In this document: positions 35,206-35,721 of the stretch, piece by piece
How positions within the stretch are numbered: position 1 is the stretch's first letter
Layout of the letters: each line of letters starts with the position of its first letter
Source: Escherichia coli
Lineage (GTDB): Bacteria; Pseudomonadota; Gammaproteobacteria; Enterobacterales; Enterobacteriaceae
Length of the DNA: 64,000 nt
Direction: 5' to 3' (one strand)
NCBI RefSeq assembly: GCF_003790525.1
Contig: NZ_CP033635.1
Made by a program: the position numbers and the translations under genes
Notes under the pieces: model-generated
What the model was told of the DNA's origin: nothing
Seen by the model: the letters and a program-made list of their open reading frames with translations, nothing else
Database searches by the model: none

Positions 35206-35721
35206 TCATTAACAGCAAAGACTTTCACTTCAGGTTAACGTTCTGGGGGGCGACTTTGAGCGTGTTGATAAGCTGAAATTAATTCTGGTTTAGATGCTTT
35301 TACCAGGCATTTTTCGTCATAGCACGCGACCAATGTAATGCCTCCAGCGCGGAGAGTTTTTTGCCTATCTTTTTCCAGCCATTCAACCTGTACAGGAGGT
35401 CTGGTGCCAATTTTGCGTATGAGGTTTAATCAACAATGAGCCAAAATTTGACTGACTGATTAACACCAAATATATTCTCCTGATTTTATTTTTTAGGGAT
35501 AATATTAAAAATATAAGGTTAATCTTAATTAAATTTTTGGCTAATATTGTGTCTTGTTATTTTTTGTGGACGGCAAGCCGCAATGGCAAAATAGGTATGG
35601 TTGTAATAATCAAAACATGATACTAACTATATATAGATCGTTGAATTGTTGGCATGTAACTCGCTACAGCGAGTAGCGTTAGTAATGAAATATAATCAAC
35701 ATGGATAGGTGAAGATTAATT

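What the first reader, a model, noticed from the sequence alone, without database searches (positions are those of the whole stretch)
35440..35721. Strongly AT-rich leader upstream of the serX-adjacent ORF
The roughly 280 bp upstream of the ORF are very AT-rich with A/T tracts (ttattttttagggataatattaaaaatataaggttaatcttaattaaatttttgg...), unlike flanking core DNA. This is the compositional signature of horizontally acquired, H-NS-silenced promoters. It also contains a short inverted repeat (ACTCGCT-ac-AGCGAGT, about 35659-35674). It supports foreign origin and regulated or silenced expression of the ORF.
Basis: seen in the sequence. Interest (0 to 1): 0.3.

Follow-up and report, generated by a model that had tools for sequence, protein, structure and literature searches.

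The report
AT-rich promoter region of old DUF2726 gene
The AT-rich stretch is real, but it is the ordinary upstream (promoter) region of a small, old nuclease-like gene that sits between phoH and the serX tRNA gene in about a fifth of E. coli strains, in E. albertii and in Salmonella, so it is not a sign of recent foreign DNA, and H-NS silencing is plausible but untested.

Summary
The window is E. coli SMS-3-5. Region 35440-35721 has 29.8% GC against 50.4% for the window, which puts it in the lowest 0.35% of 282-bp windows. The inverted repeat ACTCGCT-ac-AGCGAGT lies exactly at 35659-35674.

The stretch is the upstream region of a 228-aa membrane-anchored DUF2726 (PD-(D/E)XK fold) gene. Among the window's 37 intergenic regions it is the second most AT-rich after csgD-csgB, so it lies in the tail of the range, not outside it.

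The gene and its AT-rich upstream region occupy the same phoH-serX slot in 19% of E. coli genomes, while 81% have pgaDCBA there. They occupy the same slot in E. albertii and Salmonella. Divergence at synonymous sites matches that of the flanking core genes, and dN/dS is about 0.2. It is therefore an ancient resident, not a recent import.

Low GC (24-31%) is kept in all species. Sequence conservation is confined to the proximal ~140 bp, and only TGAAATATAAT (a perfect -10 hexamer) survives into Salmonella. The inverted repeat is not conserved. I found no RNA structure, no Rfam match, no H-NS-motif enrichment and no A-tract phasing.

H-NS occupancy is plausible from composition alone and remains untested. 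The finding is ordinary and of low interest.

The parts
35173..35199 (+). Intrinsic terminator of phoH (11-bp stem, 7 G-C pairs, T-run). It insulates the downstream gene from phoH read-through.
   Evidence: conserved in all Escherichia alleles.
35203..36414 (+). The 1.2-kb single-gene cassette that alternates with pgaDCBA-dgcT in E. coli. It comprises non-coding upstream DNA, the AT-rich region and the DUF2726 CDS.
   Evidence: Genomes of the pga type match the query only at 35160-35202 and 36415-36500. The cassette is present in 1029-1043 of 5426 genomes and the phoH-pgaD junction in 4378 of 5426.
35204..35439 (.). Cassette-specific non-coding DNA of about 45% GC and no identified function. 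It holds a minus-strand open frame without a start codon, a 27-bp indel polymorphism near 35361, and a predicted curvature peak at about 35360.
   Evidence: The conceptual translation finds only itself in E. coli. Identity to E. albertii is 75%, roughly the neutral level.
35440..35580 (+). Distal AT-rich tract (27.7% GC; 35470-35560 is 18.7%). The low GC is conserved, the sequence is not.
   Evidence: Identity to E. albertii is 76%, equal to the 4-fold-site level. Not alignable with Salmonella beyond chance, yet the Salmonella upstream region is 24-26% GC.
35448..35476 (+). Best sigma-70 consensus match, TTGACT-17-TATATT (10 of 12). If used, it would give a 5' UTR of about 240 nt. It is weakened in some E. 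coli alleles and in E. albertii, and absent in Salmonella.
35581..35721 (+). Proximal upstream region (32.4% GC), conserved in sequence above the neutral level.
   Evidence: 93-99% identity among E. coli alleles and 85% to E. albertii, against 57-76% at 4-fold sites.
35659..35674 (.). It lies where a -35 element for the conserved -10 would be.
   Evidence: Not conserved. Chance level.
35681..35713 (+). 33-nt block invariant in all 9 Escherichia sequences: AGTAATGAAATATAATCAACATGGATAGGTGAA. It contains TGAAATATAAT, which is also invariant in Salmonella, with a perfect -10 hexamer TATAAT at 35691-35696. It also contains the Shine-Dalgarno-like GGTGA at 35708-35712.
   Evidence: No matching -35 hexamer can be read in the sequence.
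35722..36408 (+). CDS of 228 aa: an N-terminal transmembrane helix, a disordered linker and a DUF2726 PD-(D/E)XK-fold domain (WP_012311993.1). GC is 43.1%.
   Evidence: Pfam PF10881, E=1.9e-18. No PADLOC or NCBIfam hit. AlphaFold2 model with helix 3-30 and a domain pLDDT of 85-98. Best fold matches are restriction endonucleases and TnsA. D149 is nearly invariant (at least 90% of the 17 sequences), and E165, D168 and H171 are invariant. dN/dS is 0.16-0.3.
36500..36587 (-). serX, tRNA-Ser(GGA). Its 3' end faces the cassette.

Best explanation
35440-35721 is the upstream regulatory DNA of an old, low-GC, single-gene cassette (35203-36414). The cassette encodes a membrane-anchored PD-(D/E)XK (DUF2726) protein and lies in the phoH-serX slot.

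Shown:
- The stretch is AT-rich.
- It lies downstream of a strong phoH terminator, so the gene needs its own promoter.
- Low GC (24-31%) is retained across Escherichia and Salmonella, while only the proximal ~140 bp is conserved in sequence.
- The deepest conserved element is TGAAATATAAT, about 25 nt upstream of the start codon.

Inferred:
- The gene is transcribed from a sigma-70-type promoter whose -10 is TATAAT at 35691-35696. The start site would be near 35703 and the 5' UTR about 18 nt long, carrying the GGTGA ribosome-binding site.
- This promoter has no recognisable -35, so it is probably weak or dependent on an activator.
- The ~250 bp of AT/TpA-rich DNA upstream, together with the 43% GC gene body, is the kind of DNA that H-NS/StpA coats. 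Expression is therefore probably low under laboratory conditions.

The AT-richness does not date or prove an acquisition. This copy has been inherited vertically since before the Escherichia-Salmonella split. In 81% of E. coli genomes it has been replaced by pgaDCBA-dgcT.
For: Composition.
Terminator upstream.
Identity of the window and its annotation.
Synteny in E. albertii and a cryptic Escherichia clade. Synteny in Salmonella.
Vertical-descent signal: 4-fold identity to E. albertii is 0.76 for DUF2726 against 0.57-0.75 for the neighbours. dN/dS is 0.16-0.3, and dN for Salmonella versus E. albertii is about 2.7-fold higher.
Conserved low GC of the upstream region: 29.8, 31.2, 30.9 and 24%.
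Graded conservation and the invariant TATAAT block.
Mutually exclusive alleles that together cover nearly all 5426 genomes.
The literature notes that pga/ycdT is missing between phoH and serX in some strains and suggests that pga was acquired: PMC5635171.
H-NS preference for AT-rich DNA with T-A steps: PMC2094087.
Against: - No transcription start site, expression data or H-NS occupancy data exist for this locus, so promoter placement and silencing are inferences.
- The conserved -10 has no -35. The best full consensus promoter (35448-35476) is a different site and is not deeply conserved.
- Near-matches to the H-NS motif occur at chance frequency. The one in the region (TCGTTGAATT, 35638) lacks the central T-A step.
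- No predicted curvature or A-tract phasing lies inside the region. The mean is at the 63rd percentile, and the periodicity power is below 98% of shuffles.
- Three core intergenic regions in the same window are about as AT-rich, so low GC alone could be ordinary promoter composition.
Confidence: 0.6

Rival explanations
1. One reading: the AT-rich leader marks recently acquired foreign DNA at serX, and its promoter is silenced by H-NS (xenogeneic silencing).
For: - Low GC in the upstream region (29.8%) and the CDS (43%).
- Position next to the 3' end of a tRNA gene that is an island hotspot in E. coli and Salmonella (PMC2907695).
- Patchy presence, in 19% of E. coli genomes.
- More distant family members sit in ICE-like elements and have 33-40% GC.
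Against: - The same synteny is found in E. albertii, a cryptic clade and Salmonella, with divergence like that of the flanking core genes.
- There is no integrase and no serX-derived direct repeat.
- Patchiness is explained by replacement with pga-dgcT in the other 81%.
- H-NS binding is untested.
Confidence: 0.1
2. Ordinary AT-rich intergenic DNA. The low GC reflects general mutational and promoter-composition bias of non-coding DNA, plus a normal promoter, with no special H-NS-mediated silencing.
For: - Pooled intergenic GC is 41%. csgD-csgB, bssS-dinI and yceJ-yceO reach 22-28% in 200-bp windows.
- The distal half evolves at the neutral rate.
- No motif enrichment, curvature or phasing.
Against: - Low GC of 24-31% is kept over about 260-280 bp in species whose sequences no longer align. 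This suggests that composition itself is maintained.
- At least one of the equally AT-rich comparators, csgD-csgB, is itself a classic nucleoid-protein target (established knowledge). Similar composition therefore argues for H-NS binding as much as against it.
Confidence: 0.25
3. The region is transcribed from the 35448-35476 promoter as a long (~240 nt) structured 5' UTR, acting as a riboswitch, thermosensor or sRNA target, or it encodes a small RNA.
For: - TTGACT-17-TATATT matches 10 of 12 consensus positions.
- AU-rich leaders can be targets for RNase E, Hfq or Rho (general knowledge).
Against: - No Rfam match at E<=1 between 35155 and 36429.
- The fold z-score is -0.94, and 38 of 200 shuffles fold at least as well.
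- The RNAalifold covariation term is -0.75 kcal/mol, and only 1 of 81 pairs shows a compensatory change.
- The promoter is not conserved in E. albertii or Salmonella.
- No terminator-like site lies inside the region.
Confidence: 0.05
4. The inverted repeat at 35659-35674 is the operator of a dimeric transcription factor that controls the gene.
For: - It is a perfect 7-bp repeat that is G+C-rich within AT-rich DNA. Only 0.8% of shuffles give one with at least 4 G/C per arm.
- It overlaps the -35 position of the conserved -10.
Against: - It is perfect in only 3 of 9 Escherichia alleles. The commonest form, ACACGCT..AGCGAGT, has an uncompensated mismatch.
- It is 4/7 in E. albertii and absent in Salmonella.
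- Without the post-hoc G/C criterion, 38% of shuffles carry such a repeat. Eight perfect 7-mers within 60 bp occur in the 601-bp intergenic region.
Confidence: 0.07

Closest known systems
H-NS-silenced AT-rich promoters of horizontally acquired genes (xenogeneic silencing; e.g. proU, bgl and pathogenicity-island promoters)
   Same: About 70% AT over about 280 bp, a high TpA content, a low-GC downstream gene, and membership of a gene family that elsewhere rides on mobile elements.
   Different: This copy is not recent. It is syntenic from Salmonella to E. coli and diverges like the core genes. There is no enrichment of the tCGATAAATT motif, no intrinsic curvature in the region, and no occupancy or derepression data.
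csgD-csgB intergenic region in the same window (42132-42885), a core AT-rich, curved, multi-regulator region
   Same: Comparable or lower GC (22.5% minimum against 26.5%), non-coding, and promoter-bearing. It shows that this composition occurs in core regulatory DNA.
   Different: csgD-csgB has a strong predicted curvature peak (60.8 degrees, second highest in the window) and a divergent promoter pair. The DUF2726 upstream region has neither, and it serves a single gene.
tRNA-adjacent genomic islands at serX (PAI-CFT073-serX, SpLE1-type elements, Salmonella SPI-19)
   Same: Located on the 3' side of serX, in the interval where islands integrate in other strains (PMC2907695).
   Different: Only 1.2 kb and one gene, with no integrase and no att-like repeat of the tRNA 3' end. 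In strains that do have a serX island, the cassette lies outside it, on the phoH side.
DUF2726 / Vsr-like PD-(D/E)XK nuclease-fold proteins (Pfam PF10881)
   Same: The ORF that the region serves matches PF10881. It has the conserved D...E-x-D...H residues and a restriction-endonuclease-like predicted fold.
   Different: It has an N-terminal membrane anchor, no fused zinc-ribbon or AbiJ-type domains, and no match to any PADLOC defence-system model. Its function is unknown.

Membership tests
H-NS-silenced (xenogeneic) promoter | AT content well above the genome average over 200 bp or more | tested here: met
   29.8% GC against 50.4%, in the lowest 0.35% of windows. However, 3 core intergenic regions in the window are similar.
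H-NS-silenced (xenogeneic) promoter | High-affinity nucleation motif tCGATAAATT with a central T-A step (Lang 2007) | tested here: not met
   There is one 1-mismatch hit, TCGTTGAATT at 35638, which lacks the T-A step. Window-wide, 19 hits were found against 19.0 expected.
H-NS-silenced (xenogeneic) promoter | Intrinsic DNA curvature or phased A-tracts | tested here: not met
   In a wedge-model calculation (Bolshoy-Trifonov angles recalled from memory, so approximate) the region mean is at the 63rd percentile. AA/TT periodicity at 10-11 bp is below 98% of shuffles. A curvature peak does lie upstream, at about 35360.
H-NS-silenced (xenogeneic) promoter | The gene is a recent horizontal acquisition (restricted distribution, divergence discordant with the core) | tested here: not met
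   Syntenic in E. albertii, a cryptic clade and Salmonella. 4-fold identity is 0.76 against 0.57-0.75 for the neighbours.
H-NS-silenced (xenogeneic) promoter | H-NS occupancy in vivo and derepression in an hns mutant | not testable with these tools
   No ChIP or hns-mutant data were found for any strain that carries the cassette. K-12, CFT073 and Nissle carry pga instead.
Sigma-70 promoter | -10 hexamer close to TATAAT | tested here: met
   A perfect TATAAT at 35691-35696, invariant from E. coli to Salmonella.
Sigma-70 promoter | -35 hexamer 16-18 bp upstream, or an extended -10 TG | tested here: not met
   Nothing resembling TTGACA lies 16-18 bp upstream of the conserved -10 (read from the sequence; the site is not listed). 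The only 10-of-12 site is 35448-35476, which is not deeply conserved.
Sigma-70 promoter | Mapped transcription start site | not testable with these tools
   No transcript data are available.
Structured cis-regulatory RNA leader or sRNA (Rfam families) | Match to a covariance model, or a stable fold with covariation | tested here: not met
   No Rfam hit in the region at E<=1. The fold z-score is -0.94. 1 of 81 pairs is compensatory.
tRNA-associated genomic island | Integrase gene and flanking direct repeats derived from the tRNA 3' end | tested here: not met
   No integrase lies between phoH and serX in SMS-3-5. The 25-nt serX 3' end occurs only once in the window at 3 or fewer mismatches. No relevant direct repeats were found.
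DUF2726 (PF10881), PD-(D/E)XK fold (applies to the ORF served by the region) | Profile match above the curated cutoff, conserved acidic and His residues, and a restriction-endonuclease-like fold | tested here: met
   66.9 bits against a cutoff of 24.7. In 17 homologues D149 is nearly invariant (at least 90%) and E165, D168 and H171 are invariant. The top Foldseek hits are BstEII, BsaWI and TnsA, with weak scores; the best is E=5e-4.

The most novel reading that the evidence does not exclude
The conserved low-GC upstream region is under selection as a silencing platform for H-NS or StpA. It would keep an ancient, membrane-anchored PD-(D/E)XK nuclease tightly off. That nuclease would be a relic toxin or defence-like gene from a mobile element that integrated at serX before Escherichia and Salmonella split. 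On this reading the phoH-serX slot is a long-lived, balanced three-way polymorphism (DUF2726 cassette / pga-dgcT / the Salmonella ManNAc island), not simple gain and loss.
Probability: 0.15. Interest if true: 0.35.

Novelty: new member of a known kind. Interest (0 to 1): 0.12.

Why it matters
It matters little. The useful outcome is a correction: low GC next to a tRNA gene does not here indicate a recent import. The AT-rich DUF2726 cassette is the ancestral occupant of the phoH-serX slot, and the well-known pga-dgcT biofilm locus is the replacement found in most E. coli. For annotation, the region can be labelled the promoter/upstream region of an uncharacterised but selectively maintained membrane-anchored nuclease-fold gene. 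If H-NS does bind it, this would be one more example of H-NS acting on very old AT-rich DNA and not on newcomers.

Tried and rejected
1. Pseudogene remnant or divergent partner gene in 35204-35439. A minus-strand frame is open for about 65-73 codons but has no start codon and carries a stop in the O111 allele. Its translation finds only the same E. coli locus among 5.8 billion proteins. Rejected as unsupported.
2. Structured RNA, riboswitch or sRNA: no Rfam hit, no fold signal and no covariation.
3. H-NS nucleation motif: matches at chance frequency.
4. IHF core site WATCAANNNNTTR: none in the region.
5. Intrinsic curvature and A-tract phasing: not elevated inside the region. The csgD-csgB positive control scored second highest.
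6. att scar or direct repeats of the serX 3' end bounding the cassette: none.
7. Upstream ORFs in the leader. The 40-aa TTG ORF at 35554-35676 is truncated in the O111 allele. Rejected.
8. Defence-system membership of the ORF: no PADLOC hit. No NCBIfam hit. No solved-structure sequence relative.
9. Published H-NS data on a homologous locus. I guessed that STM1127 was the Salmonella Typhimurium orthologue, but it is a MurR-type regulator of a different island (PMC11745405). CFT073 carries pga. No usable dataset was found.
10. The Salmonella '151-aa' form as evidence of gene decay: it is only a start-codon call, and the full 219-aa ORF is intact.
11. Hit H65 (strain IH5) lies in a scrambled, chimeric-looking assembly region and was ignored.

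Full report
IDENTITY OF THE WINDOW. The 1341 bases around the finding are 100% identical to E. coli SMS-3-5 (NC_010498.1, reverse strand). The RefSeq annotation gives the order efeUOB, phoH (window 34371-35159), a 'DUF2726 domain-containing protein' (35722-36408, WP_012311993.1), serX tRNA-Ser(GGA) (36500-36587, minus strand), then ghrA, ycdXYZ and csgGFED. The flagged region, 35440-35721, is the distal three-quarters... more precisely the downstream half of the 562-bp phoH-to-DUF2726 intergenic region.

CHECK OF THE OBSERVATION. GC is 29.8% over the 282 bp, against 50.4% for the window. Only 0.35% of 282-bp windows are as low. The core, 35470-35560, is 18.7% GC. Eight A or T runs of 4-6 bases are present, and TpA steps are 2.7-fold enriched. 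The quoted inverted repeat ACTCGCT-ac-AGCGAGT is exactly at 35659-35674.

Using the 37 annotated intergenic regions of the window, pooled GC is 41.2%. This region's minimum 200-bp GC (26.5%) ranks second lowest after csgD-csgB (22.5%) and is close to bssS-dinI (28.0%) and yceJ-yceO (28.5%). It is therefore in the AT-rich tail of intergenic DNA but not outside the range of core regulatory regions.

The inverted repeat is not statistically remarkable. 38% of dinucleotide shuffles contain a perfect 7-bp repeat with a loop of 10 or less. The figure is 0.8% only if one requires, post hoc, at least 4 G/C per arm. Twelve inverted pairs are found in the 601-bp intergenic region, eight of them perfect 7-mers.

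WHAT THE ORF IS. The 228-aa product matches Pfam DUF2726 (PF10881, E=1.9e-18) over residues 90-205. DUF2726 is classed in the PD-(D/E)XK (restriction-endonuclease fold) superfamily, with unknown function and frequent mobile-element neighbourhoods (Steczkiewicz 2012, PMC3424549; Anantharaman 2013, PMC3710099).

An alignment of 17 homologues shows E165, D168, H171, R176, R179 and D180 invariant, D149 nearly invariant, and a hydrophobic N-terminal segment in every member. An AlphaFold2 model gives a helix at residues 3-30, a disordered linker at 27-63, and a confident alpha/beta domain with pLDDT 85-98. Its best, though weak, PDB matches are BstEII, BsaWI, TnsA and other REase-fold proteins. There is no PADLOC or NCBIfam hit and no sequence relative of solved structure.

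DISTRIBUTION AND AGE. This is the key result. In 5426 complete E. coli genomes, the cassette upstream region is present in 1029-1051 genomes. The phoH-pgaD junction typical of K-12, CFT073 and Nissle is present in 4378. The two states are alternatives and together account for nearly all genomes. Genomes of the pga type share only 35160-35202 (the phoH terminator) and 36415-36500 (the serX 3' flank) with the window. The swapped unit is therefore 35203-36414. A published comparison had already noted strains that lack pga and ycdT between phoH and serX, and suggested that pga was acquired (PMC5635171).

Outside E. coli, the same order is found in several places:
- E. albertii (87% aa identity) and Escherichia sp. 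MOD1-EC7003 have phoH, an AT-rich upstream region, then DUF2726. In E. albertii, serX and ghrA follow; no serX was found within the stretch retrieved for MOD1-EC7003.
- Salmonella enterica has the same order (73% aa identity, intact 219-aa ORF). There the gene is followed by an rve-family gene and serX-ghrA, or by the SPI-19 T6SS island (PMC2907695).

4-fold-site identity between SMS-3-5 and E. albertii is 0.76 for DUF2726, against 0.75 (phoH), 0.70 (efeB), 0.62 (ycdX) and 0.57 (ghrA). dN/dS is 0.16-0.32. dN to Salmonella (0.17) is about 2.7 times dN to E. albertii (0.064), and dS to Salmonella is saturated. All of this fits vertical descent under purifying selection since before the Escherichia-Salmonella split.

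No integrase lies between phoH and serX here. No second copy of the serX 3' end exists in the window, and no bounding direct repeats were found.

The family as a whole does look mobile and AT-rich. Homologues at 37-50% identity lie between TraG_N and integrase genes in Dickeya and E. coli ICE-like regions, or beside VgrG in Erwinia, with CDS GC of 33-40%. A foreign origin is therefore plausible only as a very old event. The CDS has stayed at 42.7-43.8% GC in every lineage.

ANATOMY AND CONSERVATION OF THE UPSTREAM REGION. I aligned seven E. coli alleles, the cryptic-clade sequence and E. albertii, and separately included Salmonella. Three zones emerge.
(i) 35204-35439 has about 45% GC and a 27-bp indel polymorphism. 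Identity to E. albertii is 75%. A minus-strand frame is open here, but it lacks a start codon and has a stop in one allele. Its translation has no relatives beyond this locus.
(ii) 35440-35580 has 27.7% GC. Identity is 88-98% among E. coli alleles and 76% to E. albertii, which is the level of 4-fold sites. It is not alignable with Salmonella.
(iii) 35581-35721 has 32.4% GC. Identity is 93-99% within E. coli and 85% to E. albertii. A 33-nt block, 35681-35713, is invariant in all Escherichia sequences.

Only TGAAATATAAT and the start region TAATTATGAGCTTTATG are invariant out to Salmonella. The composition nevertheless persists. The 260-282 bp upstream of the ATG is 29.8% GC in SMS-3-5, 31.2% in O111, 30.9% in E. 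albertii and 24% in Salmonella.

The inverted repeat is perfect in 3 of 9 Escherichia sequences. The common allele reads ACACGCT-ac-AGCGAGT, a one-sided change. E. albertii keeps 4 of 7 pairs, and Salmonella has nothing comparable.

TESTS OF MECHANISM.
Promoters. phoH ends in a strong terminator at 35173-35199, so the gene needs its own promoter. The consensus scan finds 7 promoter-like sites against 3.7 expected. The best is TTGACT-17-TATATT at 35448-35476, with 10 of 12 matches. That site degrades in some E. coli alleles and in E. albertii, and it is not found in Salmonella. The deeply conserved TATAAT at 35691-35696 has no -35 and no TG extension. It would place the start near 35703, with the GGTGA ribosome-binding site in an 18-nt leader. 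This is inference.

RNA. There is no Rfam match inside the region at E<=1. The MFE z-score is -0.94. The alifold covariation term is -0.75 kcal/mol, with one compensatory pair of 81.

H-NS proxies. The Lang et al. motif tCGATAAATT (PMC2094087) has 19 matches at 1 mismatch or fewer in the window, against 19.0 expected. The single hit in the region lacks the central T-A step. A wedge-model curvature calculation used Bolshoy-Trifonov angles recalled from memory, so it is approximate. It puts the region's mean at the 63rd percentile, and AA/TT 10-11-bp periodicity is below 98% of shuffles. The known curved csgD-csgB region scores second highest in the window, and a peak at about 35360 lies upstream of the flagged region. 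There is no IHF core site. The case for H-NS therefore rests on base composition and TpA content only.

Published data. I found no H-NS ChIP or hns-mutant dataset for a strain that carries the cassette.

CONCLUSION.

This is almost certainly the promoter/upstream regulatory region of the DUF2726 gene. Its composition makes H-NS/StpA occupancy plausible, and I put that at roughly even odds. It is not evidence of foreign DNA set against a core background. The cassette is the old occupant of the phoH-serX slot, maintained by purifying selection, and the pga-dgcT segment replaced it in most E. coli. The inverted repeat is probably chance.

Nothing here departs from known kinds of sequence. It is an undescribed but ordinary AT-rich promoter region, and interest is low.

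Noticed in passing
window 34961-35154 (minus strand): Strong Rfam match to Ysr251 (RF02855, 192 bits, E=8.7e-54), an antisense 'Yersinia sRNA' family that overlaps the 3' end of phoH. It may simply reflect conservation of the phoH coding sequence.
   Followed up: no
window 35203-36414 versus L015 (CFT073) 19237-27424: The phoH-serX interval is a swap hotspot. A 1.2-kb DUF2726 cassette is present in about 19% of complete E. coli genomes, and pgaDCBA-dgcT in about 81%, with breakpoints at the phoH terminator and the serX 3' flank. In Salmonella the same interval holds DUF2726 followed by an rve-family gene and serX, or DUF2726 followed by SPI-19, while LT2-type strains carry the STM1127-1131 ManNAc island in this neighbourhood.
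   Followed up: partly
L009 4306-4622, L003 10307-10621, L008 5616-5934 (other E. coli strains); window 36409-36499: Many strains carry two tandem ~137-nt units, annotated 'RtT sRNA', between the DUF2726 gene and serX. SMS-3-5 has none, and only a 91-bp spacer. The serX 3' flank (36415-36500) is itself repeated, with a median of 3 places per E. coli genome.
   Followed up: no
window ~35361 and ~35360: A 27-bp in-frame-length indel (CTTCCAGAAGCCCAAAAAGCGAGTATC) is absent in SMS-3-5 and KKo009 and present in the other alleles. The third-highest predicted curvature peak of the whole window (55 degrees) falls at the same place, just upstream of the flagged region.
   Followed up: partly
window 35701-35712: A conserved upstream ATG opens a 3-codon mini-ORF, ATG GAT AGG TGA, that overlaps the Shine-Dalgarno sequence. 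Salmonella keeps ATGGATAG, which gives ATG GAT AGT AAT TAA. It would lie at or before the inferred transcription start, so it is probably not translated.
   Followed up: no
L021 4001-4612 (Dickeya), L023 4001-4645 (E. coli), L022 4001-4636 (Erwinia): More distant homologues with the same transmembrane-helix-plus-DUF2726 architecture (37-50% identity) sit between TraG_N and integrase genes of ICE-like elements, or next to a VgrG/PAAR toxin cluster. Their CDS GC is 33-40%. The family is typical mobile-element cargo.
   Followed up: partly
L019 4797-5456 (Salmonella): The very common Salmonella '151-aa DUF2726' protein entry is an artefact of start-codon choice. The full 219-aa ORF with the membrane anchor is intact.
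   Followed up: yes
window ~3036-5779: torS is annotated as frameshifted (a pseudogene) in SMS-3-5.
   Followed up: no
window 13521-14388, 42077-42928, 57937-58349, 59852-60184: These are the other lowest-GC stretches of the window: the yccE gene and its upstream region, the csgD-csgB intergenic region (minimum 25% GC), yceJ-yceO and bssS-dinI. All lie in or beside genes with standard E. coli names (yccE, csgD/csgB, yceJ/yceO, bssS/dinI). They show that this composition is not confined to accessory DNA.
   Followed up: partly
L004 (NZ_CP168949.1, strain IH5): A 153-bp fragment of the upstream region sits in a region made of many truncated, unrelated gene fragments. This looks like a chimeric or misassembled stretch of that record.
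   Followed up: no
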